Assembly (NCBI GenBank): GCA_963723105.1
Contig: CAVRPK010000003.1
Coordinates: 9,206-73,205 of the forward strand
Length of the DNA: 64,000 bases
Direction: 5' to 3'
Source: an uncultured Candidatus Micrarchaeota archaeon
GTDB lineage: Archaea > Micrarchaeota > Micrarchaeia > Anstonellales > Bilamarchaeaceae
In this document: positions 24,309 to 47,171 of the stretch, piece after piece
Numbering within the stretch: position 1 is the first letter of the stretch
How the letters are laid out: each line of letters opens with the position of its first letter
The notes under the pieces: model-generated
Seen by the model: the letters and a program-made list of their open reading frames with translations, nothing else
Told to the model about the DNA's origin: nothing
The model's database searches: none
Translations under genes and position numbers: made by a program

Positions 24309-25520
24309 ATGCGACTTCCCTATGTTCTCTGGCGGATTCTTGAACTTAAAAGAAACCAGTGGAAAAGCCAGGATGAATTTGAAGAAATGCAGCAGGAGCA
24401 ATTAGTAAAGCTTGCAGATCACGCTTCACTAAATGTCCCATACTACAAGAATTTGAAAATCCGGGATATTGATGATCTGGCAGATCTTCCATCTCTAACC
24501 AGATCTGATTTTCTCAAAAATAAAGACTCTCTTATCAGCAGGACTGCCAATATGAATGACCTGATTGTAAGAAAAACTTCCGGATCATCCGGAACACCTA
24601 TGAAGGTTCTTATTGATTCAAAAGAGAATATATATAGAAGCGCAAATAGCTATTATGCATTTTCTGAAGCTGGCATGAACCTATTAGATGATGTGGTGTT
24701 TATCTCCCATGCATTAAGTTCGCCGCCAAGGTCTGCTTTTGTCAACTATCATTTCTTTGATATCCTGGAAACTGAAAGGGATCTGCTGCGCCAAATAAAA
24801 AAAATCAATCCAAATATCCTTTGGGCGTATCCAAGTATTTTGGTTCTTCTTGCAAACAGAAATCAGAAGGAATCCTTCAATATCTCAATACCTCGGATAT
24901 TTACTCAGGCAGAAATTCTTTCAGCTACTGCAAGAGAGCTACTAAAGCGTTCCTTTAATTCAGAGATCCGCGATTTTTATGCTTCTATGGAATTTGGAAG
25001 AATTGCATGGGAATGCGAAGAAGGAAGCATGCATTTGCTTTCAGATTCAATGATTGCAGAGGTTCTGGATCCTAGCGGAAAACCAATAAAAAATGGAAAA
25101 CCTGGGAGACTGGTCCTGACTCAACTCTTCAAATATGCAATGCCACTAATTCGCTATGAAATTGGAGATGAAGTTTCCATTGGAACAAAGTGCAAGTGCG
25201 GAAGGGGATCCCATGTCCTTTCATCAATCAAAGGCAGGCTTAATGTCCATGTAGTTCTGCCTAGCGGAAACCTTTATCCAGCAACATTCGTAGATACACT
25301 TCTTCGAAACCTTCCAAATGTTCTTGAATTCCAAATAGTTCAAAAGTCCAGGGACCTTCTGCTCATCAATGTAATAGAGTCAAAACCAATTGATCCTCAT
25401 CAAATCGCAAAAGCAATCAATCTAGCAATGCCAGAGTCCATGGATATAGAGGTTGCTTTTGTTGATTCAATCAAAAGAGAAAAGTCCGGAAAATTTTCTC
25501 ATTTTATCTCTGAATTATAA
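24309..25520 (+). CDS. PaaK/F390-synthetase/CapK-like adenylate-forming ligase (paralog 2)
   Basis: RKTSGSSGTPMKV, KCKCGRGSHVLSSIKGR and C-terminal EKSGKFS. Confidence 0.85.
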   Translation: MRLPYVLWRILELKRNQWKSQDEFEEMQQEQLVKLADHASLNVPYYKNLKIRDIDDLADLPSLTRSDFLKNKDSLISRTANMNDLIVRKTSGSSGTPMKVLIDSKENIYRSANSYYAFSEAGMNLLDDVVFISHALSSPPRSAFVNYHFFDILETERDLLRQIKKINPNILWAYPSILVLLANRNQKESFNISIPRIFTQAEILSATARELLKRSFNSEIRDFYASMEFGRIAWECEEGSMHLLSDSMIAEVLDPSGKPIKNGKPGRLVLTQLFKYAMPLIRYEIGDEVSIGTKCKCGRGSHVLSSIKGRLNVHVVLPSGNLYPATFVDTLLRNLPNVLEFQIVQKSRDLLLINVIESKPIDPHQIAKAINLAMPESMDIEVAFVDSIKREKSGKFSHFISEL

Positions 25521-26875: not shown

Positions 26876-28084
26876 ATGCTGGAATTATCAATGATGCTTG
26901 CGAAGTTAAAGCTGAATCAATGGAAAAGCGAGGATGAATTCAAGCTGATCCAGGAGCAGAAATTCAAGGAGCTTTTTTCCTATGCTAAAGCACATTCCCC
27001 TTACTATCGAAAAACTCTGAAAGATTGCACTTTTTCTAGTCTTGAGGATCTTCCAAATCTTCCACTAACCATGAAAAAACCACTACAGAGCTCTCCAGAT
27101 GAGTTTCTAAGCTCAAAGTTCACTAAAAAATCTCTTATCAAATCTTCAAGCTCAGGATCTACTGGGGCTCCAGTAGACATTTATCATGATAAGAGCGAGG
27201 CTCATTTTGGTCCAGGTTTTGAGCTTCATCAGTTTACTGAAGCTGGAGTAACTCCATTTGACAGCCAGATTCGTATAACCCACAATGATTACAAGCAAAA
27301 TTTCCTCCAGAAACTTGGCATCTTCAGAAGAAAACACCTTCCTTTTTCCAATTCGCCGAAAAAAAATCTTCAAATCATAAAGCATGGGCCGAAGAAAGTT
27401 CTGATTGGCTTTACCTCTGTTTTACTTCCTCTTGCAAGAGCAAATCTGGAGACTCGCGCAAAAGCAAAAATAGTTTTTACTTCTGGGGAAGTGCTCTCTG
27501 AATCGGATCGTAAATTAATCAGCGAATCTTTCTCCTGTCCTGTTCGGGACATGTATGGATGCGTTGAAACTTCCTGGATTGCATGGGAATGCGAAGAAGG
27601 CAATATGCACCTGTTTTCTGATTATCTGACTGCTGAAATTGTGGATGATCAGTATCGTCCCACAAAAGGCTATGGAAACATAGTAGTCACTCCACTCTGG
27701 AAACGATCCATGCCTCTTATTCGCTATTTCCTTACTGATCAGACTGCTATAGCAAAAAGGTGCAAATGCGGAAGAGGCTCTACTGTTATCAAACCAATAA
27801 TCGGAAGGGATGATGATTTCATTGTTCTAAAAAATGGTTCAAAACTTTCTCCTGCTGTCATCTCCTGTGCATTGAATGATGTTAAGGTTAAGGAGTATCA
27901 AATAGTGCAAAATGCAATTGATGATTTTGTCTTCAAATATGTTCCAGCCAATGGGCTTAACATCGCCAATCTCAAGGAAATTTTCAAAGATCAAATCGGT
28001 GATGCACATATAGAATTTGAGGAATTGGAAAAAATTAGCTGTACTAAGACAGGCAAGAGGAAAAAAATCATCACCAGGATCTAA
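26876..28084 (+). CDS. PaaK/F390-synthetase/CapK-like adenylate-forming ligase (paralog 4)
   Basis: SSSSGSTGAPVDI, RCKCGRGSTVIKPIIGRDDD and C-terminal TKTGKRKK. Confidence 0.85.
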   Translation: MLELSMMLAKLKLNQWKSEDEFKLIQEQKFKELFSYAKAHSPYYRKTLKDCTFSSLEDLPNLPLTMKKPLQSSPDEFLSSKFTKKSLIKSSSSGSTGAPVDIYHDKSEAHFGPGFELHQFTEAGVTPFDSQIRITHNDYKQNFLQKLGIFRRKHLPFSNSPKKNLQIIKHGPKKVLIGFTSVLLPLARANLETRAKAKIVFTSGEVLSESDRKLISESFSCPVRDMYGCVETSWIAWECEEGNMHLFSDYLTAEIVDDQYRPTKGYGNIVVTPLWKRSMPLIRYFLTDQTAIAKRCKCGRGSTVIKPIIGRDDDFIVLKNGSKLSPAVISCALNDVKVKEYQIVQNAIDDFVFKYVPANGLNIANLKEIFKDQIGDAHIEFEELEKISCTKTGKRKKIITRI

Positions 28085-38132: not shown

Positions 38133-39296
<1,164 letters not shown>

Positions 39297-39319: not shown

Positions 39320-40006
39320 TTATCTTAAGTAAAATAATAACAAAAGCAAACTAATTATCAGTGGTTGATGTATGACATATATTAGCAGTGAGTTTCTTCC
39401 AAGGTATGTGAGGCCTTCTGTTAGTTTATTCTTTACTTTGAACTCTGGCATAACCTTTCCCAGAAACAACCCGATTAGCACAACTCCAAACCATGGAACC
39501 AGTGGATAATGATCAAGTGCAGTATATGTATGAGTTATCCATCCAAGCCAGAACAAATAATATATGTCTGTATAATGAACAGAAATTCCTGCAATTATCA
39601 ATATTACTCCTAGTATGAGGTTAAGCCATTTAAACCTGAAAAATAGCGGAGCAATTAATGTGGATACTGCTATGCAATGTATTACTCCAAATTTTATGAA
39701 TTCCTCTGGAGCAACTATCCATGTTGCTATGCTTATCAAAAGTGCAACTGCACCCAATTTCACAGCTCTCTTAAGATGCCTCTTATATCCTTCATTATTC
39801 TTCTTTTCGCTTAAAATCAGAGATATCCCCACAAGAAGAAGGAACATGGTCCCAACAACTCTTTGAAATAATAATAGCTCCAAATCCTCAAAATTAATAT
39901 GGACAATTCTCAAAAATTCAAGATCAAAAGTCAAATGGAAAATTATCATTAATACTATTGCAACTCCACGAAAAGCATCAATATCCATCCTTCTATCTTT
40001 GTACAT
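39320..40006 (-). CDS. DUF1624-type membrane protein (heparan-alpha-glucosaminide N-acetyltransferase-like)
   Basis: KDRRMDIDAFRGVAIVLMIIFHLTFDL followed by multiple TM helices. Start set at ATG 40006, with an alternative at 39988. The longer ORF-track N-terminus overlaps the upstream gene. Confidence 0.65.
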   Translation of the reverse strand: MYKDRRMDIDAFRGVAIVLMIIFHLTFDLEFLRIVHINFEDLELLLFQRVVGTMFLLLVGISLILSEKKNNEGYKRHLKRAVKLGAVALLISIATWIVAPEEFIKFGVIHCIAVSTLIAPLFFRFKWLNLILGVILIIAGISVHYTDIYYLFWLGWITHTYTALDHYPLVPWFGVVLIGLFLGKVMPEFKVKNKLTEGLTYLGRNSLLIYVIHQPLIISLLLLLFYLR

Positions 40007-40820
40007 GATCTGCCTTCTCCAAAATTTCTCTTGATTTGCGATCTGAAATTCCTGTTTTGCGTGCAAGTTTTTCTGGAGTTTCTGGAAAATCAAAAACAGT
40101 AACTATCTTTTTCTTAAGCAATTGCCTAAGCGTTCGGTCTCCCATTTTTATGACGCTAACTGGATAGCACTTTGATCGATCTATCCTAACTTCGAGACTG
40201 TTCTTGAATGGATATCTCCATCCAAGAAGGTCAATTTCCTTGTAGTCTGCATATGTGATAACATCCTGCGAGAATTTTGCATTTGTAACAAGCCATGGCC
40301 TGTAATATTTTTCGCAGGTTCCGAGTTTGGTTCCTTCTTTCAAATCAAGAAACCTTGCATAAACATAAAGTGCTGTTTGTATCCTGCATTTATATCCTGG
40401 TTGATTGCGGAATTTGCATTCGATCATATATCTCCTGCTATCTTTTTCTGCAACAACATCTATCTCGTGACTCAAGCATCTTCCTTCTATGGTCTGCCTT
40501 AATTTTGTGTCATATCCCTCTAGGCTAAGGAGCCTTCCCACAAAGTCCTCAAATTCATAACCTGCAGGGCCAATGCGCTGGAGTGCTCTTTTGAGATTGT
40601 ATTTATGCGAGACTTCAGGTCTCATCTGTTCAATTAAATCATAAACCATGTGATAGATTGCTTTGGTGCTTATTCCATTGTAAATGTACGGGTATAGTTG
40701 CTGAAGAATCTCATCGCATTCCTTTGGGCTGAGCCCGCTTCTTCTGATTGCTTTTTTTACTTTAGCTTTCTCAAACCTTTCCTTTTCTCCGTTCTCTTTA
40801 AGCACCCAGTAAATTGACAT
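39993..40820 (-). CDS. ATP-cone domain fused to a PD-(D/E)xK (Mrr-like) nuclease domain
   Basis: The N-terminal ATP-cone reads VLKENGEKERFEKAKVKKAIRRSGL. The central GYEFEDFVGRLL...HEIDVVAEKDSRRYMIECKFRN is a restriction-endonuclease-like D...(D/E)xK core. Confidence 0.75.
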   Translation of the reverse strand: MSIYWVLKENGEKERFEKAKVKKAIRRSGLSPKECDEILQQLYPYIYNGISTKAIYHMVYDLIEQMRPEVSHKYNLKRALQRIGPAGYEFEDFVGRLLSLEGYDTKLRQTIEGRCLSHEIDVVAEKDSRRYMIECKFRNQPGYKCRIQTALYVYARFLDLKEGTKLGTCEKYYRPWLVTNAKFSQDVITYADYKEIDLLGWRYPFKNSLEVRIDRSKCYPVSVIKMGDRTLRQLLKKKIVTVFDFPETPEKLARKTGISDRKSREILEKADHVQR

Positions 40821-40886
40821 CAGTATGTCTGGGTGCGCAAGCGTTTTATTATTTATTGATTTGCCTACAACTATTTCTTGGTTGAA

Positions 40887-41159
40887 ATGATCGATCTAAT
40901 CCAACTGGAATCAGAAGCACAAACAAAAGTCAACAAATCCATCACTTCTATAGAAATTGCCCTGGCAAGATGGGACAACACAAAAGACAAACCCTCTCAT
41001 TTGAGAGAAAGAATGAACTATTTGAAAGTTTCACATAAAATGTTTTCCGAATGGCAAAAGAAATCACTCACAGGACAAAAGGATCTTCCAGCAGTTATTG
41101 CGAGGCTAAATGAATTTAGTAATATTTGCAATTATCTGAAAAAGAAGGAGGCAATGTAA
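40887..41159 (+). CDS. Cassette 1, gene A: small Lys-rich helical protein (90 aa), unknown function
   Basis: Paralog of 43812-44081 (SIEIALARWDNTKDKP...YLKVSHKMFSEWQKKSLTGQKD versus KIEIALADWDQSEEKP...YLKKSHTLFSNWMKKSLKGKKD). Its stop directly abuts the ATG of the next gene. Confidence 0.7.
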   Translation: MIDLIQLESEAQTKVNKSITSIEIALARWDNTKDKPSHLRERMNYLKVSHKMFSEWQKKSLTGQKDLPAVIARLNEFSNICNYLKKKEAM

Positions 41160-42467
41160 ATGGGAGGAGGACCACAGCAACTTGAACAAGGGCTTGAGGC
41201 TGCAGAAGAAACAGTCAGGCTTGCAACTGAACACATGAGCCATATTCCGCAGCCCCTGCAACCTAACATTACTGGAGCGGTTATGGCAGCGCTTGCTACA
41301 ATCCAGGCAACTACTGCCTTTGGATCATCAACCGTAAGAGATGCACTAGCTAATCTTCCATATGGGATTGCACATGATACGATGCAGGTTTTTGCTAGTG
41401 AGGATGAAGCGCGTGATCATACTGATAGGGAAATGCGCTATATAGAATCACATAGACTTCCAGATCGAAGGTCTGATGAAGAGCTTGAGACAAGTGCAGC
41501 AGGTTTTGAAACTTCTCTGAGGCAAGATCGCAGAGAACTTGCAAGGCTCGAGAGAATACCTAATCCTGATCGAGGGGAAATAAGAAGACTCGATATAAGT
41601 ATCCAGACAACCGAACTGGAACTTCGAAGAATACACTATGAGCTTGAGCGGCGCTCTGGAGTTGATGTTCCTGAAGTTTTTGATGAGGATGTTCAGGTTG
41701 CGCGTCAAGCAGGAACTACTGCACTTGGCTGGATGACTGCAAGTTATCTAGGTGCAGACCTTCATGCTGTAGTAAGCTCTGCTCCTCCAATACTCACAGT
41801 TGAATCTGAGAGATTTTTTGACTCTCTGGATGCGCTTGAGGGCCACTATGGATCTACTGCCAGGTATTTTCCAGGAACCAATCATATTGCAGTAAGATCT
41901 GTTCAGGATGATATTGTCAAGGATGCTCTTGAAGCGACTGTTGCACACGAAATGCTGCACTACATTGCATATCTTGGAGGTGGTCATCACATCAGATGGA
42001 CTTCTGATTCAGGGGAGCTTGTAGATCAAGGTAACATCACCTGGCTTCATGAAGGGCTTACTGAATTGCATGCTCAGCAATTAACAAGTGCTCATGGGAT
42101 ACATCCAGATGCATCAACATACGAACATGAGACTCGAACTGCATTCTATCTGCAGAGAATCGTTGGAGAGCCGGTGCTTCGACGTGCTTATTTGACTGGT
42201 GACTTTAGCGAAGTTCGAACGCGCTTAAATGCAAGGCTTGGTGAAGGGACTTTTGAAACACTTGCAAAACAAAGGGAATATGTTCCAGATCCAAGACAAC
42301 CTGGTGCAACTGGTTATGTGACTAGAGGTTCAGATGCAGTAGCATTCTTGCTTGACCGGATGGATGCAGCAGGAGTTGACCGCTCTACGTGGGACCAGGA
42401 TCCTTTGATTGCTGATTCTGTTAGGGTTGAAAGATTGATTGAAGGTGGAGCGGATGGATCTAGTTAA
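41160..42467 (+). CDS. Cassette 1, gene B: HExxH gluzincin-like (Peptidase_MA_2-type) protein, 435 aa with only 2 Lys
   Basis: VAHEMLHYIAYLGGGHHIRW followed 30 residues later by WLHEGLTELHAQQLT. No signal peptide. GC-richer than its neighbours. Confidence 0.75.
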   Translation: MGGGPQQLEQGLEAAEETVRLATEHMSHIPQPLQPNITGAVMAALATIQATTAFGSSTVRDALANLPYGIAHDTMQVFASEDEARDHTDREMRYIESHRLPDRRSDEELETSAAGFETSLRQDRRELARLERIPNPDRGEIRRLDISIQTTELELRRIHYELERRSGVDVPEVFDEDVQVARQAGTTALGWMTASYLGADLHAVVSSAPPILTVESERFFDSLDALEGHYGSTARYFPGTNHIAVRSVQDDIVKDALEATVAHEMLHYIAYLGGGHHIRWTSDSGELVDQGNITWLHEGLTELHAQQLTSAHGIHPDASTYEHETRTAFYLQRIVGEPVLRRAYLTGDFSEVRTRLNARLGEGTFETLAKQREYVPDPRQPGATGYVTRGSDAVAFLLDRMDAAGVDRSTWDQDPLIADSVRVERLIEGGADGSS

Positions 42468-42693
42468 TACGACTGAATATAAAAATGCCAAAGCACAAAT
42501 CGCATCCTTGATGCAGAAGCTAGATGCGGCAAAAAAAGATGATGTGGCTAAGTTAAGAGATGAGAAGGCAGAATTCTTCCAAAAAATGAAGGAGACAAAC
42601 CCCAGACTTTATTCTGCATTTCAGATCGATGATAATGATCTCAGCCGAAAAATTCATAAAAAACTCACTGGAAGAGACGTAATTATCGACTAA
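42454..42693 (+). CDS. Cassette 1, gene C: small Lys-rich helical protein (79 aa), unknown function
   Basis: From ATG 42454 the length equals its paralog 45181-45420. Shared sequence: DEKAEFFQKMKETNPRLYSAFQIDDNDLS...VIID versus DEKKVFFANMKKTNPNLYSIFQINDKEIS...IVID. It overlaps gene B by 14 nt. Confidence 0.7.
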   Translation: MDLVNTTEYKNAKAQIASLMQKLDAAKKDDVAKLRDEKAEFFQKMKETNPRLYSAFQIDDNDLSRKIHKKLTGRDVIID

Positions 42694-42695
42694 TC

Positions 42696-42707
42696 TTTCC
42701 GCGGAAA
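42696..42707. promoter_or_regulatory. 12-bp perfect palindrome tttccgcggaaa between cassette 1 and orc1/cdc6
   Basis: It lies 3 nt after the C1 stop and 48 nt before the orc1 ATG. A TATA-like aattttaaa element sits at approx. 42725-42733. Confidence 0.3.
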
Positions 42708-42754
42708 TGAGATGATTCTGCGGTAATTTTAAACTTTATCTGTATTATTTTGCT

Positions 42755-43807
42755 ATGCCCAATTATTTTGACGGTTCTTCAGATGATCCTTCTATTATCA
42801 AATTCGAGGAGATTCTTCTTCCAGACCATATGCCAGATGAGCTTGGGCATCGGGATAAAGAATTGCAGGTGCTTGCAGATTCAATAAAACCTCTATTATC
42901 AAGGAGGACTCCAGATAATCTTTTCATATATGGCCCTTCAGGATGCGGCAAAACAACATGTGTGAAATATATTCTCAAACAGTTAACTGACCATTCATCA
43001 TCAGTTCTTCCTGTGTATGTAAACTGCTGGGAAAACCCAACTCAGATGGCAGTTTATAATAAAATCATCGAAGCAATGCGGCTCCCGCTTCCACGCAGAG
43101 GACTTGCTACAGATGAAATTTTCAATCGAATTACTGAATATGTGAAAAATTACAATAAGCCAATTTTACTTATTCTTGATGAGATGGATGGTCTTCGTCA
43201 TGATAAGCTGCTTTATGTGGTCTCAAGAGCAAACGAGCAAAAGCTGAGCTTTGGGATTATTGGGATTACAAATAACAAAGAGCTTCTATCAAAACTCGAT
43301 TCAAGAGTTCGCAGTTCTCTTAGGTTTTCTGATATGGAATTTGAAGATTATTCAGAAGATCAGCTCCTTTCAATTCTTCGCATTCGTGCTGAGCATGCGC
43401 TTCTTCCAGGAAGCTATGATGATCGGTTACTTACCAAAGTTGCACGTTCAGTTGACTGTGGCTCTGCAAGAGTTGTGATCGAGAGACTGTGGAAATCTGC
43501 AAAGCATGCAGAAAAGGCTGGCAGGTCAAAAATAATGCTTCAGGATGTTGAGGATGTTGCTTCAGCAGAGCCTTCTTTCAAAGTTTCAGAATATAATCTA
43601 TCTTCAGAAGAACTACTTATTCTGGAAATCCTAAAAGATGGCGAATTGCCTTCTTCAAAGCTTTATGATAAATTTATTGCAAAGATTCCAAAAACCAAGA
43701 GGCAGATACGAAATTATCTTGAGCTTCTTGAGAAAAAAACCTTGATTGAATCTGAAGATGTTGAAGCAGATGGTATGCTAAAGCCAAAGATCTTCAGGCT
43801 GAGGTGA
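42755..43807 (+). CDS. cdc6: Orc1/Cdc6 replication initiator (AAA+ ATPase with C-terminal winged helix)
   Basis: LPDELGHRDKELQVLA, Walker A FIYGPSGCGKTT, Walker B LLILDEMD, and a C-terminal winged-helix-like region. Confidence 0.9.
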   Translation: MPNYFDGSSDDPSIIKFEEILLPDHMPDELGHRDKELQVLADSIKPLLSRRTPDNLFIYGPSGCGKTTCVKYILKQLTDHSSSVLPVYVNCWENPTQMAVYNKIIEAMRLPLPRRGLATDEIFNRITEYVKNYNKPILLILDEMDGLRHDKLLYVVSRANEQKLSFGIIGITNNKELLSKLDSRVRSSLRFSDMEFEDYSEDQLLSILRIRAEHALLPGSYDDRLLTKVARSVDCGSARVVIERLWKSAKHAEKAGRSKIMLQDVEDVASAEPSFKVSEYNLSSEELLILEILKDGELPSSKLYDKFIAKIPKTKRQIRNYLELLEKKTLIESEDVEADGMLKPKIFRLR

Positions 43808-43811
43808 TAAA

Positions 43812-44081
43812 ATGAATGAATTGATCGTACTTGAGATGAATACTCGGGAAAGACTGAGCAAATCTCTTTCTAAAATTGAGATCGCACTGGCTGATTGGGA
43901 TCAATCAGAAGAGAAACCCAAAAAGTTCATGAAAAAGATTTCATATTTGAAAAAATCACACACGCTTTTTTCTAACTGGATGAAAAAATCTCTCAAAGGG
44001 AAAAAAGATTCCAGTTCCAGTCGTATAAGACTTCAAGAATTTACTGAGATTTGCAGAGAGCTTAATCCAACGGTGGAATGA
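43812..44081 (+). CDS. Cassette 2, gene A: small Lys-rich helical protein (89 aa)
   Basis: Paralog of 40887-41159. It starts 4 nt after the orc1 stop and has an ATGA overlap with the next gene. Confidence 0.7.
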   Translation: MNELIVLEMNTRERLSKSLSKIEIALADWDQSEEKPKKFMKKISYLKKSHTLFSNWMKKSLKGKKDSSSSRIRLQEFTEICRELNPTVE

Positions 44082-45172
44082 TGGCCGAACCCAGAATTGT
44101 AAGAGAGCCGGCCAATCTTGGCAATACTGTTGAAGATGCACACCGAAGTGTTCGAACTGTAATTGATACGCCTGCTCCGGTAGTTGTTCCGAGAGTGCTC
44201 GATGCTGCAAGATCTGTTTCAGCTGCACTTGAGTCTATCCAGGACATACTTACCTATAGTTTAGAAGAAGTCGAGCCACAAGTAGTACTCTCAGATGCAT
44301 ATTCGCATGAAGCTCCACAATTGATTTTGGCATCAGTTGAAGATGCTCGGGCACATAGCAGTGGAGCAGCAGATGAACATGCCGCTATTATAGCCGAACG
44401 CGGACCTGCTCCAGCAGCCAGCTTAAGAGCTCTTGCAGTGCGTCCTGTTGATCCAGAGCTTGCAGAAGCAAATGCACAATTATCAAGAGAAATTTCAGGG
44501 ACGTGGCTTACCGAATCTTATTTAGGCTCACGTCTTGGAGAGAGGTTTGCAAGTACTCCTCCTATTTTAACTACAGAACCGCAAGAATTCTTCGATCTTG
44601 TTAATGAAGCTCTTTCCTATCATGATACAAGAGGCCTTTATTTTCTTGGCACAAGCCATGTTGTGATAAGTTCTGAAGAACTTGAGGCTGATCGAAGAGT
44701 AGTGATTGTTCATGAGCAGTTGCATTATGCTGCATGGCTTGGTGGTGGACGCACCATAAGATGGGAAAGAGGCGAGGGGAGAGAAACTGTTCTTGGTTAT
44801 GTAAGCTGGCTTCATGAAGGCCTTACTGAATTGCATGCACAGCAACTTACCCGGGAACATGGCCATACTCCAACTAGGATTAGCTATCCAATGGAAACTG
44901 CAGCGGGCTCTTACCTCCAGAGACTTGTTGGAGCGCGAAGACTTAGGGAAGCATATCTGTCTGGTGATTTTAGTGAAGTTAGGAGAATGGTCAATGGAAG
45001 ACTTGGCGGAGAAACATTTGACAGGCTTGCCAGAATGGAGAATGGCTATGAAGCTCTGGTATTTCTGAGAAGCCGTCTTGAATCTGCTGGAATTGATTAC
45101 AATTCCTGGGATGGTCCATTATCAGATATAACTCTTGTTTCTATAGGAGATGGAGGTCCCACTGGGAATTAG
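44078..45172 (+). CDS. Cassette 2, gene B: HExxH gluzincin-like protein, 364 aa with 0 Lys and 33 Arg
   Basis: VIVHEQLHYAAWLGGGRTIRW...WLHEGLTELHAQQLT...AYLSGDFSEVR. Paralog of 41160-42467. Confidence 0.75.
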   Translation: MMAEPRIVREPANLGNTVEDAHRSVRTVIDTPAPVVVPRVLDAARSVSAALESIQDILTYSLEEVEPQVVLSDAYSHEAPQLILASVEDARAHSSGAADEHAAIIAERGPAPAASLRALAVRPVDPELAEANAQLSREISGTWLTESYLGSRLGERFASTPPILTTEPQEFFDLVNEALSYHDTRGLYFLGTSHVVISSEELEADRRVVIVHEQLHYAAWLGGGRTIRWERGEGRETVLGYVSWLHEGLTELHAQQLTREHGHTPTRISYPMETAAGSYLQRLVGARRLREAYLSGDFSEVRRMVNGRLGGETFDRLARMENGYEALVFLRSRLESAGIDYNSWDGPLSDITLVSIGDGGPTGN

Positions 45173-45180
45173 GTGATGTT

Positions 45181-45420
45181 ATGGAAATTCATGAGACTGA
45201 AGAATATAGATCTGCTCTGATAAAAGTAAAATCCTGGAAGGAAAAAATTGAAAAATCAGAAAAGAAATCGTTATTCAGGGTTCTTGATGAAAAGAAGGTA
45301 TTCTTTGCAAACATGAAGAAAACAAATCCCAACCTCTATTCAATATTCCAGATAAATGACAAAGAAATCAGCGAAAGTGTAGCTGAAAAGCTATATACAG
45401 CCAAAATTGTCATCGACTGA
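45181..45420 (+). CDS. Cassette 2, gene C: small Lys-rich helical protein (79 aa)
   Basis: Paralog of 42454-42693. The 8-nt spacer after gene B contains GGTGAT. Confidence 0.7.
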   Translation: MEIHETEEYRSALIKVKSWKEKIEKSEKKSLFRVLDEKKVFFANMKKTNPNLYSIFQINDKEISESVAEKLYTAKIVID

Positions 45421-45461: not shown

Positions 45462-46373
45462 ATGCTGACCAGAGCAATTAGAAATCTCGGGAACTTTCTG
45501 TTCCTAAATATCCTAAACAGGTGGGTTGCAGGAGCTAAGGCCGAGGATGCTATTACCTACTGCCAGGGCCTGAAAACACCGTGCGTTATTCATTACCTTG
45601 GAGAAGCACATACAGAAATTCCCCATGTGATGGATGCTGTTAATGAATACAAACATCTGATTGATCTTATTTCAAAGAATAAACTCAAAGCACAAATCAG
45701 CATCAAACCAACTCAGTTTGGCTTTAATGTTCTTGAAAAAGAAGATTCAGAAAAATTTTGTTCTCATCAGATGCTCGAAGTCATAAAATATGCATCATCT
45801 AAAAAAATCCAAACATGGCTTGATATGGAATATTCAGAAGTAACTGATTTTACAATTCGGTTTTATCGCCGTTTTGCATCTAAATACAAGCTTGGAATCA
45901 CGCTTCAGGCAAATCTCAAAAGAACTGAGAAAGATCTGCTTGATCTGGCTAAATTCTCACAAAAAACAAAGGTCAAAGTCCGTTTGGTAAAAGGAGCATA
46001 TCATGAAAATGATGAGCTTGTTTTATCTGATTCACATGAAATCCACGTAAAATATCTTGGCTTGATATCTCTTGCATTTGAGCAGACTACCAAAGATTTT
46101 GGGATCGTTGTTGCGTCACATCATACCCAAGCACTTGAACTTGCACAAACTCTTCAGAAAACACATAAGAAAAAGTTTTTTGGGCTTGAGATACTTAAGG
46201 GAGTAATCCCAAATTATTCTAGCGAACTTAGGAAAAATGGGGTATCATTGATTGAATATGTTCCTTATGGGGAGCATGTGTTTGCGTATTCTATAAGAAG
46301 AGCAGATAAAAAATATGCCAATTCTATATTTCTTGTTCCTTTCTTTGATGCATACAAGAAACTTTACAAGTGA
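45462..46373 (+). CDS. Proline dehydrogenase family protein
   Basis: RWVAGAKAEDAI...ISIKPTQFG...VRLVKGAY...LKGV...YVPYGEHVFAYSIRR matches the PRODH (beta/alpha)8 signature order. Confidence 0.72.
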   Translation: MLTRAIRNLGNFLFLNILNRWVAGAKAEDAITYCQGLKTPCVIHYLGEAHTEIPHVMDAVNEYKHLIDLISKNKLKAQISIKPTQFGFNVLEKEDSEKFCSHQMLEVIKYASSKKIQTWLDMEYSEVTDFTIRFYRRFASKYKLGITLQANLKRTEKDLLDLAKFSQKTKVKVRLVKGAYHENDELVLSDSHEIHVKYLGLISLAFEQTTKDFGIVVASHHTQALELAQTLQKTHKKKFFGLEILKGVIPNYSSELRKNGVSLIEYVPYGEHVFAYSIRRADKKYANSIFLVPFFDAYKKLYK

Positions 46374-46379
46374 TGAATT

Positions 46380-47171
46380 ATGAAAAACTACAAGCCTCTT
46401 GATCGTCAATACGATTATGTCAGTTCTCAAAGCAAGTTAATGTTTTCACAGGAGTGCGAGCTTCTAGAGGATCTGATTGCATTTTCCTTTGCAAGATATT
46501 TCCATCTTAATAAGGATGGGCTTAGTGATCTGGAACAAGAGCTTGCAGCTCTTTTTTACAGAAACTGCATTTATCTTTCTGCAACTTATCGTCTTGTTAC
46601 TAGCGGGCTTCTGGATCCTGCTGGAAATAACCTTCGAACTGTTTTTGAGACTATTATCTGGCAATATGCATACAAGTGCGAGCTAGAAATTTTTGAAAAT
46701 CAGAGTGAGATGAACCAGCTTGAAGAGCAAAAGCTTGCCAGTGAATGGTCTGGCACCAAAGAACGAAAACTTCAGAATCTGCGAAGAAAATATAGCTTCC
46801 AGAAAATGATGAAAAACATGTACTCAAAAGAAACATATGAGAATTTTTTCTTTAATCAATACTGGATATTATCCCAAAAATCTCATGCAAGTGTATTTGG
46901 TGTAAATAATAATACTCCGTCAATGGAAGGAAAGACAACTTTAGAAAAGAATCCCAAAGAACTTCAAAAAAATCTCTCTGCTTCACTGTATTTTTGTGCA
47001 GAGAGCTTGATTTGCTTTCTTAACTGCTTTTCCAAAAGGCTTACTCAGGCTGAAATTGATCTTTCTTTGAAAAAACTCAATCAGGTCAATCAGATTATTT
47101 CGCCAACTGCTGGGCTTGCTCCTGATAAAAAGAACCTTGAATTCACGATCCAGTTTCGTGAGATTAATTAA
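46380..47171 (+). CDS. Hypothetical protein
   Basis: 263-aa ORF 6 nt after the previous gene. No motif recognised. Confidence 0.5.
   Translation: MKNYKPLDRQYDYVSSQSKLMFSQECELLEDLIAFSFARYFHLNKDGLSDLEQELAALFYRNCIYLSATYRLVTSGLLDPAGNNLRTVFETIIWQYAYKCELEIFENQSEMNQLEEQKLASEWSGTKERKLQNLRRKYSFQKMMKNMYSKETYENFFFNQYWILSQKSHASVFGVNNNTPSMEGKTTLEKNPKELQKNLSASLYFCAESLICFLNCFSKRLTQAEIDLSLKKLNQVNQIISPTAGLAPDKKNLEFTIQFREIN

What the first reader, a model, noticed from the sequence alone, without database searches (positions are those of the whole stretch)
40887..45420. Duplicated three-gene cassette (small helical protein / HExxH protein / small helical protein) bracketing orc1/cdc6
Two copies of the same gene triplet sit on either side of orc1/cdc6, all on the same strand.

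Evidence that the copies are paralogous:
- A1/A2 (90 and 89 aa) share (S/K)IEIALA.WD...(D/E)KP....YLK.SH..FS.W.KKSL.G.KD.
- B1/B2 (435 and 364 aa) share PPILT, HE.LHY.A.LGGG..IRW, WLHEGLTELHAQQLT and AYL.GDFSEVR. Their N-terminal approx. 150-200 aa have diverged.
- C1/C2 (both 79 aa) share DEK..FF..MK.TNP.LYS.FQI.D and a conserved (V/I)(I/V)ID C-terminus.

Evidence for translational coupling:
- The A1 stop abuts the B1 ATG.
- B1 and C1 overlap by 14 nt.
- A2 and B2 overlap as ATGA.
- The 8-nt B2-C2 spacer carries GGTGAT.
- A2 starts 4 nt after the orc1 stop.

B looks like a clan-MA gluzincin (HExxH plus a downstream WLxEGLxE, as in Peptidase_MA_2 proteins) and has no signal peptide. I do not recognise A or C, nor this triplet, as any described toxin-antitoxin, restriction, defence or secretion module.

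Two hypotheses fit: an effector peptidase with two small helical chaperone, targeting or inhibitor partners (formally like LXG/Lap or WXG-type arrangements), or a protease-based conflict system.
Basis: partly seen in the sequence, partly recalled or inferred. Interest (0 to 1): 0.9.

Follow-up and report, generated by a model that had tools for sequence, protein, structure and literature searches.

The report
Duplicated zinc-protease module flanking orc1
Two ancient copies of an undescribed three-gene unit, a collagenase-like zinc protease with two small helical partner proteins, sit on either side of the replication-initiator gene of a tiny symbiotic archaeon (Micrarchaeota); the unit is real, conserved and absent from the family databases, but it is an optional extra at this chromosomal spot and its target is still unknown.

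Summary
A1/B1/C1 (40887-42693) and A2/B2/C2 (43812-45420) are paralogous triplets: BLASTP E=1e-26, 2e-58 and 6e-18.

B is a catalytically intact gluzincin with invariant HExxH and HEGLTE. It belongs to a family absent from Pfam, NCBIfam, PADLOC and PHROGs. Its nearest relatives are M9 collagenase and M61 peptidase domains (profile E about 1e-5, and the top Foldseek hits). A and C have no detectable relatives.

The module recurs in about 18 Micrarchaeota genomes as MRR(-)|orc1->(A-B-[C])x1-3->[ProDH]->D.

Natural A-B, B-C and C-B fusions indicate one physical unit. So does a strict co-occurrence of gene A with B's N-terminal helix.

An orc1-seeded metagenome scan, unbiased for ABC, found ABC in only 2 of 9 orthologous loci. 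ABC is therefore an accessory occupant of a variable slot. It is not part of the replication machinery.

There is no signal peptide, no viral or plasmid hit, and no known defence model.

Best reading: a lineage-specific, regulated, heteromeric cytoplasmic metalloprotease, possibly serving conflict or host interaction. Target and role are unknown.

Verdict: a new family and new module architecture within a known enzyme kind. Interest is moderate.

The parts
40821..40886 (+). Divergent intergenic region between the ATP-cone/Mrr gene (-) and A1. It holds an A/T-rich TATA-like stretch (TTTATTATTTATT) and is the presumed promoter of A1-B1-C1.
   Evidence: Sequence read. The promoter role is inferred.
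40887..41159 (+). A1: small basic helical protein (90 aa, pI 9.5), a member of the A family.
   Evidence: (A-profile E=4e-38).
41160..42467 (+). B1: gluzincin metallopeptidase (435 aa, pI 4.9). Residues 1-207 are an all-helical N-terminal extension. Residues 208-430 or so are the catalytic domain.
   Evidence: (AF2 pLDDT 80.9).
41946..41960 (+). B1 HEMLH zinc-binding and catalytic motif (H263, E264, H267).
   Evidence: Invariant in alignment A1. E264 and H267 are invariant and H263 nearly invariant across 56 distant members.
42051..42053 (+). B1 E298 within WLHEGLTELHAQQ, the predicted third zinc ligand. It lies 31 residues after H267.
   Evidence: It aligns with the ligand-bearing EG motif of the M9 and M61 structures.
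42454..42693 (+). C1: small basic helical protein (79 aa, pI 8.9) with the conserved C-terminus (V/I)(I/L)D.
   Evidence: (C-profile E=2e-35).
42694..42754 (+). Intergenic region upstream of orc1 with an A/T-rich box (AATTTTAAACTTTAT). It is the presumed promoter of orc1-A2-B2-C2.
   Evidence: Sequence read. The promoter role is inferred.
42755..43807 (+). orc1/cdc6 (350 aa). It is a conserved neighbour and the first gene of the second transcription unit. It is not itself part of the module.
   Evidence: 80% mean column identity across Micrarchaeota.
43812..44081 (+). A2: paralogue of A1 (89 aa, pI 9.6).
44078..45172 (+). B2: paralogue of B1 (364 aa, pI 5.0). HEQLH is at residues 211-215 (nt 44708-44722) and E247 is at nt 44816-44818.
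45181..45420 (+). C2: paralogue of C1 (79 aa, pI 8.8).

Best explanation
A-B-C is a dedicated, lineage-specific (Micrarchaeota) three-component zinc metalloprotease module.

- B is the enzyme. Its C-terminal half is a catalytically competent gluzincin domain of a previously uncatalogued family, closest to the M9 collagenase and M61 peptidase domains. Zinc would be held by H263, H267 and E298, with E264 as the general base (B1 numbering). Its N-terminal half is a fast-diverging helical extension that I infer sets partner or target specificity.
- A is a basic ~90-aa helical protein that I infer binds the conserved first helices of B's N-terminus.
- C is a basic ~80-aa three-helix protein that I infer docks on B as a second regulatory or adaptor subunit.
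- I infer that the complex acts in the cytoplasm on specific protein targets.

The two triplets in the window are ancient paralogues, both kept by purifying selection. One has its own promoter. The other is co-transcribed with, and translationally coupled to, orc1.

The position next to orc1 is an inherited address in a variable slot between orc1 and NMD3/DUF2070. It is not a requirement of replication initiation, because equally related orc1 loci lack ABC.

Shown here: paralogy, conservation, catalytic motifs and fold class, recurrence of the module, fusions, the co-occurrence of A with B's N-terminus, and the accessory distribution.

Inferred: physical complex formation, regulation by A and C, and cytoplasmic action.

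The biological role is unknown. My best guess, at about 0.3, is an inter-organism conflict or host-interaction function rather than housekeeping.
For: Enzyme:
- HExxH and HEGLTE are invariant in 14 close homologues. E264 and H267 are invariant and H263 and E298 nearly invariant in 56 distant ones.
- A diverse-family profile hits M61 aminopeptidase 7xyo (E=1.7e-5) and ColG, ColT and ColH (E=2.6e-5 to 6e-4). The alignments span the edge strand, HExxHY and W-x-x-EG-x-x-E.
- AF2 models have pLDDT of 81-82, with a beta-sheet followed by two active-site helices.
- The eight best Foldseek PDB hits are all M9 peptidase domains (E=0.025-0.27, probability up to 0.92), followed by MATCAP.
- The full-length B1 model hits aminopeptidase N first.

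Module:
- The same order, orc1-(A-B-[C])n-D, appears in about 18 independent Micrarchaeota contigs.

Physical coupling:
- P0043 is a B-C fusion and P0042 is a C-B fusion.
- L013 carries an in-frame A-B fusion.
- 23 of 24 B copies in loci that have an A gene keep B-profile positions 1-13. None of 9 copies in loci without A does (Fisher p=2.6e-7, ignoring phylogeny).
- A and C are basic (pI 8.8-9.6) and B is acidic (pI ~5).

Maintenance:
- Omega is 0.01-0.20 for all six genes.
- The paralogue clades are shared between genomes.

Accessory status:
- In the orc1-seeded scan, only L024 and L027 of 9 loci with Orc1 identity of 62% or more and at least 1.5 kb downstream carry ABC. L031 and L034 run orc1->NMD3. 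L032 and L039 run orc1->D.

Cytoplasmic location:
- No window of 19 residues exceeds a Kyte-Doolittle score of 1.34 in A, B or C.

Native origin:
- B's GC3 is 0.27-0.29, at or below that of its neighbours, so its higher GC reflects amino-acid composition.
Against: - No complex prediction or experiment was possible. Association is inferred from fusions and co-occurrence, and both are phylogenetically non-independent.
- Stoichiometry is not 1:1:1. Arrays hold 1-3 B copies, 0-3 A copies and exactly one C. Catalytically intact solo B genes exist without A or C (L007, L017, L021). A and C are therefore not obligatory for every B.
- The Foldseek E-values are weak (0.025 or worse). The family assignment rests mainly on profile hits of about 1e-5 and on motif geometry.
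- Peptidase activity, substrate and metal are untested.
- The tight coupling to orc1 (4-nt gap, SD-like sequence across the stop codon), seen in nearly all ABC-bearing genomes, could still reflect a functional link that I am discounting.
Confidence: 0.55

Rival explanations
1. Toxin-immunity or abortive-type conflict system. B would be a toxic protease, C (encoded downstream) its inhibitor or immunity protein, and A a chaperone or activator. The system would fire on viral or foreign-element attack.
For: - Distribution is patchy and accessory, and the copy number in a variable slot varies.
- B's N-terminus diverges fast.
- The family is a large lineage-specific expansion: 371 clusters at 50% identity.
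- One solo copy lies beside cas4, cas2 and a CRISPR array (L007).
- The C-terminal residue of C is an invariant Asp, which could plug a zinc site (inference).
- B and C have higher omega than their neighbours.
Against: - There is no hit to any PADLOC model.
- B gave no viral-contig, phage-record or plasmid hit and A gave no viral-contig hit, so there is no sign of mobility.
- The chromosomal address is fixed and the paralogue clades are ancient, which argues against turnover.
- There is one C per array whatever the number of B copies. Intact solo B genes lack C or A. Covalent B-C and C-B fusions exist. All three are awkward for a toxin and its immunity protein.
- The P0043 fusion ends in KIKY, not IID.
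Confidence: 0.2
2. Replication-coupled housekeeping. B would be a protease co-expressed with Orc1/Cdc6 that turns over the initiator or removes DNA-bound proteins or DNA-protein crosslinks (SprT/Wss1-like). A and C would be basic DNA- or Orc1-binding adaptors.
For: - Adjacency to orc1 on the same strand holds in about 18 genomes. Across those, Orc1 keeps only 63-75% identity and GC content ranges from roughly 0.37 to 0.58.
- A is translationally coupled to the orc1 stop codon.
- There are sub-threshold SprT-like hits in 9 of 45 close and 3 of 56 distant family members.
- A and C are basic.
Against: - 7 of 9 orthologous orc1 loci in the unbiased scan have no ABC.
- B copies occur far from orc1 (L007, L017, L021, L023 and the P0054 contig).
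- The neighbouring genes (MRR, HGSNAT, NMD3, DUF2070) are just as syntenic, so the linkage may be inherited gene order.
- The SprT hits cover only the HExxH helix and fall below the gathering score.
- No DNA-binding family was detected in A, B or C.
- No ORB-like repeats occur around orc1.
Confidence: 0.12
3. Exported effector. A plus B's N-terminal helices would form an LXG/Lap- or WXG-like helical targeting bundle that delivers the protease domain into the host cell of this episymbiont. C would be a self-protection factor.
For: - The layout is formally analogous: a small helical partner upstream, a helical N-terminus joined to an enzymatic C-terminus, and a small gene downstream.
- A co-occurs with B's N-terminal helix.
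- In many long homologues the domain sits at the extreme C-terminus (P0103, P0115, P0109, P0095, P0094), as in polymorphic toxins.
- Micrarchaeota are host-dependent (established knowledge).
Against: - No LXG, WXG100 or Lap (DUF3130, DUF3958) hit appeared at E<=0.1 in any A, B or C member.
- No type VII secretion system is known in archaea (knowledge).
- There is no signal peptide or transmembrane segment.
- Here the enzymatic C-terminus is the conserved part and the N-terminus is variable, the reverse of polymorphic toxins.
- No secretion genes lie in the neighbourhood.
Confidence: 0.1
4. Not a functional unit. A, B and C would simply be neighbours inherited together in compact genomes.
For: All members come from one phylum, where gene order around orc1 is broadly conserved.
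Against: - Three kinds of gene fusion exist.
- A and B's N-terminus are lost together.
- The unit was duplicated as a whole, in the window and in arrays elsewhere.
- ABC is absent as a block where it is absent.
- The start and stop codons overlap.
Confidence: 0.03

Closest known systems
M9 bacterial collagenase peptidase domain (ColG, ColH, ColT) and M61 glycyl aminopeptidase (clan MA(E) gluzincins)
   Same: - HExxH lies on one helix. The Glu ligand lies in a W-x-x-EG-x-x-E motif on the next helix, about 28-31 residues later.
- A conserved G-x-Y edge strand precedes the motif.
- These are the best profile hits (E about 1e-5) and the best Foldseek hits.
   Different: - B has no signal peptide, activator domain, PKD domain or collagen-binding domain.
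- B has an invariant LGGGxxIRW hairpin and the HAQQ extension.
- B has a helical N-terminal extension and dedicated small partners.
- Sequence identity is only 11-16%, and Pfam M9 and M61 score below threshold.
M1 aminopeptidase N and Peptidase_MA_2 (PF13485)
   Same: The HExxH...WL-x-EG motif logic is the same. Aminopeptidase N is the top Foldseek hit for full-length B1 (E=0.16).
   Different: - The spacer is 31 residues rather than 18.
- Peptidase_MA_2 gave no hit at E<=1.
- Peptidase_M1 scored below threshold in only 2 of 56 distant members.
MATCAP/DUF1704 ('QEGLA-motif') gluzincins
   Same: These are cytoplasmic gluzincins with an EGL(A/T) third-ligand motif. They are the next-best structural hits (E=0.29-0.84).
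   Different: There is no sequence-level match. The N-terminal architecture differs, and MATCAP has no partner genes.
LXG toxin with Lap1/Lap2 partners (Firmicutes T7SSb)
   Same: The gene-order logic is the same: small helical partner or partners, then a protein with a helical N-terminus and an enzymatic C-terminus, then a small downstream gene. The partner is tied to the N-terminal helices.
   Different: - There is no homology.
- Archaea have no T7SS.
- The C-terminal domain is conserved rather than polymorphic.
- C can be fused to B.
ImmA/IrrE (M78) and SprT/Wss1 minimal zincins
   Same: - These are cytoplasmic regulatory or repair HExxH proteases encoded next to the gene for their partner or substrate.
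- IrrE-like proteins are the best viral fold hits (E=0.012).
- There are sub-threshold SprT-like motif hits.
   Different: All hits fall below the thresholds. No Xre-type HTH partner and no DNA-binding module were detected. B's catalytic domain is larger, with a gluzincin C-terminal helical subdomain.

Membership tests
Gluzincins (clan MA(E) zinc metallopeptidases) | An HExxH motif on an alpha-helix supplies two His ligands and the catalytic Glu. | tested here: met
   - HEMLH is at B1 263-267, inside helix 254-273 of the AF2 model.
- E264 and H267 are invariant and H263 nearly invariant in 56 distant members.
Gluzincins (clan MA(E) zinc metallopeptidases) | The third zinc ligand is a Glu on the following helix, typically in an x-E-G/x-x-A/T-E motif. 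| tested here: met
   - E298 lies in WLHEGLTE on helix 294-311 and is nearly invariant family-wide.
- It aligns to the WF(D/S)EG(T/F)(A/T)E motif of ColG and of the M61 structure.
- The ligand role itself is inferred.
Gluzincins (clan MA(E) zinc metallopeptidases) | A thermolysin-like two-subdomain fold: an N-terminal mixed beta-sheet plus active-site helices, and a C-terminal helical bundle. | tested here: met
   - The secondary-structure order in two AF2 models is strands, then the HExxH helix, then a hairpin, then the Glu helix, then 6 helices.
- The top Foldseek hits are all gluzincins, although E is 0.025 or worse.
Gluzincins (clan MA(E) zinc metallopeptidases) | Zinc-dependent peptidase activity. 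| not testable with these tools
   Needs biochemistry.
Peptidase family M9 (microbial collagenases) | A match to the curated family model above threshold. | tested here: not met
   Pfam Peptidase_M9 scored below threshold in only 2 of 56 distant members (best E=0.0015) and in none of the close ones.
Peptidase family M9 (microbial collagenases) | A secreted multidomain architecture: signal peptide, activator domain, PKD and collagen-binding domains. | tested here: not met
   There is no signal peptide or transmembrane segment and no such Pfam domains.
   PF13485 did not appear at E<=1 for B1 or B2, at E<=0.01 in 56 distant relatives, or at E<=0.1 in 45 closer ones.
LXG/Lap or WXG100 (T7SS substrates) | An LXG or WXG100 domain in the effector or partners, with Lap1/Lap2 (DUF3130/DUF3958) partners. 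| tested here: not met
   No such Pfam hit appeared in any of 16 A, 14 C or 45 B sequences at E<=0.1.
LXG/Lap or WXG100 (T7SS substrates) | A type VII secretion apparatus in the genome. | not tested
   - Only 64 kb of the genome is available.
- The ORF list of the whole window was not family-scanned, and no secretion gene was called in the related loci.
- No T7SS is known in archaea (knowledge).
Known anti-phage defence or toxin-antitoxin systems | A match of any component to a catalogued defence or TA model. | tested here: not met
   PADLOC gave nothing significant (best E=7e-4, a coiled-coil type hit on A2). NCBIfam and PHROGs gave nothing.
SprT/Wss1/Spartan DNA-protein crosslink proteases | A SprT-like domain above threshold plus a DNA-binding module. 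| tested here: not met
   SprT-like matches cover only the HExxH helix (best E=5e-4, below the 25.6-bit cutoff). No zinc-ribbon or DNA-binding domain was detected.
Orc1/Cdc6 (the bracketed gene) | An AAA+ domain, a Cdc6 lid and a C-terminal winged helix, with a match to TIGR02928 above cutoff. | tested here: met
   TIGR02928 scores 211.3 bits against a cutoff of 181.3. AAA_22 and Cdc6_lid also match.

The most novel reading that the evidence does not exclude
ABC is a DPANN-specific protein-delivery or conflict weapon. A clamps the N-terminal helices of B into a targeting bundle, functionally like LXG/Lap but evolved independently. This bundle routes a collagenase-like protease through the cell-cell bridge into the host archaeon, or against rival or viral proteins. 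C holds the enzyme latent in the producer. The diverged paralogues (B1 and B2, or up to three per array) would be aimed at different targets. A second novel reading is that co-transcription with orc1 times this proteolysis to the start of the cell cycle.
Probability: 0.15. Interest if true: 0.8.

Novelty: new variant of a known kind. Interest (0 to 1): 0.5.

Why it matters
- Micrarchaeota and other DPANN archaea are obligate symbionts with tiny genomes, and the molecules they use to deal with hosts, rivals and viruses are almost entirely unknown.
- This work defines a sizeable enzyme family: 371 clusters at 50% identity, all named members from Micrarchaeota. It is absent from Pfam, NCBIfam, PADLOC and PHROGs.
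- The family has intact catalytic residues and two dedicated partner families, and it has been kept in multiple ancient paralogues in genomes that discard almost everything non-essential.
- That makes it a concrete, cloneable candidate for host-interaction or conflict biology in DPANN, and a new branch of the M9/M61-like gluzincins.
- The work also shows that a striking conserved linkage to orc1 need not mean a replication function.

Tried and rejected
- **Foreign origin of the B genes, inferred from their raised GC (0.46 against 0.36-0.39).** Rejected. GC3 is 0.27-0.29, no higher than in the neighbours, so the excess comes from amino-acid composition.
- **Virus or plasmid association.** B and A gave no hit in IMG/VR contigs. 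B gave no hit by tblastn against phage records or plasmids.
- **D (46380..47171, DUF5677-like) as a fourth component.** Rejected. D occurs directly after orc1 without ABC in L032 and L039. DUF5677 was tested and not found protective in one preprint (PMC12632615).
- **A replication origin with ORB repeats in the flanking intergenic regions.** Both spacers are only about 60 nt. No repeats were found in 39-48 kb.
- **Homology between A, C and B's N-terminus.** hhalign probability was below 1%.
- **PDB sequence relatives of A, C and D.** None were found.
- **Recent duplication or gene conversion.** Rejected. There is no DNA-level similarity beyond 68 nt.
- **Positive selection on B.** Omega is 0.08-0.17, so selection is purifying, although dS is near saturation.
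- **Docking of C on B in the AF2 model of the natural B-C fusion.** The model was made, but coordinates and PAE are not exposed. The docking, and the idea that the C-terminal Asp plugs the zinc site, could not be evaluated.
- **Taxonomy of the giant B-domain proteins.** The sources give no names.
- **Literature.** Searches found no description of this module.

Full report
**1.

Listing ORFs over 38-48 kb reproduces all seven genes on the + strand.
- A1 is 40887..41159. The mechanical ORF starts at TTG 40878; the ATG gives 90 aa.
- B1 is 41160..42467 (435 aa).
- C1 is 42454..42693 (79 aa from the ATG).
- orc1/cdc6 is 42755..43807 (350 aa).
- A2 is 43812..44081 (89 aa), B2 is 44078..45172 (364 aa) and C2 is 45181..45420 (79 aa).

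Pairwise BLASTP confirms paralogy.
- A1/A2: 46% identity, E=1e-26.
- B1/B2: 42% identity over 242 residues, E=2e-58. The alignment begins only at residue 171 of B1 and 126 of B2.
- C1/C2: 38% identity, E=6e-18.

- TAA|ATG between A1 and B1, preceded by AAGGAGG.
- A 14-nt B1/C1 overlap.
- The A2 ATG 4 nt after the orc1 TGA, with GAGGTGAT spanning the stop.
- An ATGA overlap of A2 and B2.
- An 8-nt GTGATGTT spacer before C2.

The orc1 call is secure: TIGR02928 scores 211 bits against a cutoff of 181, and AAA_22 and Cdc6_lid also match.

The duplication is old. At the DNA level, only 68 nt around the HEGLTELHAQQ codons are still recognisably similar, at 79%.

**2. What B is**

Neither B copy reaches threshold in Pfam, NCBIfam, PADLOC or PHROGs.

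The family is nevertheless substantial.
- A word-indexed search found 13 relatives, and every named one is a Candidatus Micrarchaeota MAG.
- An exhaustive profile search of 1.84 billion cluster representatives found 371 proteins at E<=1e-3 and 113 at E<=1e-30.
- Further named members are also Micrarchaeota/Micrarchaeia.

The motifs are strongly conserved.
- In 14 close homologues, the invariant residues include H263, E264 and H267 (HExLHY), L272, G274, R279 (LGGGxxIRW) and H297-Q306 (HEGLTELHAQ).
- Across 56 distant members, E264 and H267 stay invariant, and H263, E298 and G299 stay nearly so.

Several results place B among the gluzincins.
- A profile of the distant members hits solved structures of an M61 aminopeptidase (E=1.7e-5) and of the clostridial collagenases ColG, ColT and ColH (E=2.6e-5 to 6e-4).
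- Those alignments run from the G-x-Y edge strand through HExxHY to W-x-x-EG-x-x-E.
- Individually, a few distant members give sub-threshold Pfam hits to Peptidase_M1, M9, M61 and SprT-like. None hits Peptidase_MA_2.
- An AF2 model of B1 (pLDDT 80.9) shows an all-helical N-terminal 207 residues, followed by strands, the HExxH helix, a beta-hairpin, the Glu helix and a helical bundle.
- Its best PDB fold hit is aminopeptidase N, weakly (E=0.16).
- A model of a homologue with a short N-terminus (P0043, pLDDT 82.0) gives M9 collagenase peptidase domains as its eight best PDB hits (E=0.025-0.27, probability up to 0.92), then MATCAP.

However, it represents an uncatalogued family nearest to M9 and M61. 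The spacer between the His and Glu ligands is 31 residues, and that spacer carries the invariant LGGGxxIRW hairpin.

B is acidic (pI ~5), has no cysteine and has no hydrophobic segment compatible with a signal peptide or membrane anchor.

**3. A and C**

- A (16 sequences, 52% mean column identity) has invariant W29, K35, P36, W56, S60, L61, G63, R73, F77 and C81.
- C (14 sequences, 50% mean column identity) has an invariant FF pair, Y53, F56, S64 and a terminal Asp within a (V/I)(I/L)D C-terminus.
- Both are basic, with pI 8.8-9.6.
- Neither family matches any Pfam model consistently. None matches WXG100, LXG, Lap or an HTH family.
- Neither matches any PDB sequence.
- A, C and B's N-terminus are not detectably related to one another.

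**4. The module recurs and is one unit**

I annotated the loci fetched by B homologues with profiles of A, B, C, Orc1, D, the Mrr-like neighbour and ProDH. The same layout appears in about 18 independent Micrarchaeota contigs:

HGSNAT(-), ATP-cone/Mrr(-) | orc1 -> (A-B-[C]) x 1-3 -> [ProDH] -> D -> ... NMD3(-), DUF2070

- Examples include orc1-A-B-C-D (L001, L003), orc1-A-B-A-B-C-A-B-D (L002), orc1-A-B-A-B-B-C-D (L009) and orc1-B-C~B-B (L004).
- The window and its near relative L006/L024 are A-B-C-orc1-A-B-C-ProDH-D.
- One other lineage (L104, GCA_046331685.1) has a single A-B-C upstream of orc1 and none downstream.

Three lines of evidence tie the proteins together physically.
- **Natural fusions.** P0043 is B-C and P0042 is C-B. 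L013 is an in-frame A-B fusion in which A has lost its last helix.
- **Co-loss.** 23 of 24 B copies in loci that have an A gene begin at profile position 13 or earlier. All nine copies in loci without any A gene start at position 46 or later, so they lack B's conserved first helices. These are L004 x2, L007, L017, L019 x2, L021, L022 and L023. Fisher p=2.6e-7, uncorrected for phylogeny.
- **Charge.** A and C are basic and B is acidic.

A rough NJ tree of the catalytic domains shows that the paralogues are ancient.
- The 'first after orc1' A-B pairs without C (L002, L009, L014, L016) form their own clade.
- Window B1 groups with L006 B1 and the solo L007 copy.
- Window B2 groups with L006 B2, L012 and L015.

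Against L006/L024, all ten genes of the region are under purifying selection.
- Omega is 0.01-0.20 overall. B and C are at 0.11-0.20, and ORC, D and MRR are at 0.02-0.05.
- dS is about 1, so these values are rough.

**5. The orc1 linkage is an address, not a dependency**

The loci above were found through B, so they cannot show how often orc1 lacks ABC. I therefore seeded the single metagenome scan with an Orc1 alignment and annotated the 80 loci it returned.

Nine loci have Orc1 at least 62% identical to the window's and at least 1.5 kb of downstream sequence. That is the same identity range as the ABC-bearing genomes (63-75%).
- Only L024 and L027 carry ABC.
- L031 and L034 go straight from orc1 to NMD3(-)/DUF2070.
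- L032 and L039 go orc1->D->NMD3.
- L025 has a GNAT gene and an LPG-synthase gene there.
- L035 has ProDH.
- L029 has unrelated genes.

Five of these seven ABC-free loci keep the Mrr-like neighbour; no MRR hit was found in L032 or L035. The interval between orc1 and NMD3/DUF2070 is thus a variable slot. ABC is an accessory occupant, gained once or lost repeatedly. D is independent of ABC.

B copies also occur away from orc1.
- One lies beside cas4, cas2 and a CRISPR array (L007).
- One lies between PEP carboxylase and malic enzyme (L023).
- Others occur elsewhere (L017, L021, and the P0054 contig).

No ORB-like repeats occur near orc1, and both flanking spacers are only about 60 nt. B gave no viral-contig, phage-record or plasmid match and A gave no viral-contig match.

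B's raised GC (0.46) is not a sign of foreign DNA. Its GC3 (0.27-0.29) is at or below that of its neighbours.

**6. Mechanism**

What the data show:
- A catalytically intact gluzincin.
- Two dedicated small partners, one of them tied to the enzyme's N-terminal helices.
- Tight co-translation signals.
- Ancient paralogues that have been retained.
- A cytoplasmic location.
- An accessory distribution within one host-dependent phylum.

What I infer: A and C assemble on B as adaptor or regulatory subunits. The variable helical region of B sets specificity, and the complex performs regulated proteolysis of particular proteins.

The biological role is open.
- The accessory, expanded and diversifying character favours conflict or host-interaction biology. 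I give that about 0.3 overall, split between a toxin-immunity-like system and an exported effector.
- A strict toxin-immunity reading fits poorly with one C per array, with intact solo B genes, and with covalent B-C fusions.
- An LXG/Lap-type export reading has no homology support and no known archaeal apparatus.
- A replication-linked role (Orc1 turnover, or SprT-like crosslink repair) is weakened by the seven of nine orc1 loci that lack ABC and by the copies far from orc1. Co-transcription with orc1 remains unexplained and could still matter.

**7. Novelty and score**

No literature on this module was found. DUF5677, the family of neighbour D, is mentioned only as an untested-to-negative defence candidate.

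The enzyme class is known. The family, its two partner families and the three-gene architecture are undescribed. I rate it a new variant of a known kind.

Interest is moderate (0.5). It is a clean, testable lead into DPANN biology, but it has no demonstrated function and is less tied to replication than its position suggests.

Noticed in passing
window 39993-40820 (-): A protein with ATP-cone, Mrr_cat (PD-(D/E)xK) and AF1548-like C-terminal domains is transcribed divergently from the orc1 region. It is the conserved neighbour of orc1 in nearly all Micrarchaeota loci examined, including most that lack ABC. An ATP-cone fused to a restriction-endonuclease fold next to the initiator gene is unexplained.
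   Followed up: partly
window 46380-47171 (+): 'D' is a 263-aa protein that is very strongly conserved (69% mean column identity, 73 invariant columns). It is a distant, sub-threshold DUF5677 relative in 11 of 11 members. It follows the ABC array in most genomes, but it also follows orc1 directly where ABC is absent (L032, L039).
   Followed up: partly
window 45462-46373 (+): Proline dehydrogenase (PF01619, E=1e-28) sits between C2 and D. It is present at this position in some relatives (L005, L012, L014, L015, L019, L105) and absent in others. It is another variable occupant of the same slot.
   Followed up: partly
window 38133-39296 (+): A 387-aa protein with an N-terminal signal-like segment, many cysteines, an (EP)13 repeat and a C-terminal hydrophobic anchor followed by basic residues. 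It is probably a surface protein.
   Followed up: no
L007 1-5064: A solo, catalytically intact B homologue (3961-5064) lies directly after a cas4-like gene, a cas2-like gene, a CRISPR-like repeat array and a nucleotidyltransferase-like gene in another Micrarchaeota MAG. It has no A or C and lacks the conserved N-terminal helix.
   Followed up: partly
P0102 (3693 aa; B-like domain at residues 1173-1401) and its cluster member P0161 (7173 aa): The B-type gluzincin domain also occurs inside giant proteins, one with a weak C-terminal PIN hit. It also sits at the extreme C-terminus of several 780-1150-aa proteins that have no recognisable domains. Their organisms are not named by the sources.
   Followed up: partly
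L002, L004, L009, L014, L019, L020, L105, L106 (arrays) compared with the window: Each contiguous B array has exactly one C (free or fused), whether it holds 1, 2 or 3 B genes. The window has two arrays separated by orc1, and each has its own C. The 'first after orc1' A-B pairs without C form a separate, ancient B clade.
   Followed up: partly
L022 3846-5483: The only non-archaeal hit in the species-representative genomes is a 545-aa protein in a MAG labelled Gammaproteobacteria. It has several N-terminal hydrophobic segments and a weak B-like domain (profile E=1.5e-9). The neighbouring genes look like those of a small-genome bacterium, and the binning was not checked.
   Followed up: no
window 24309-25520 and 26876-28084 (+): Two paralogous ~400-aa genes have similar N-termini (…NQWKS(Q/E)DEF…YY(K/R)…). 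They lie within a cluster of glycosyltransferase-like and membrane genes and may belong to a surface-polysaccharide locus. This was not analysed.
   Followed up: no
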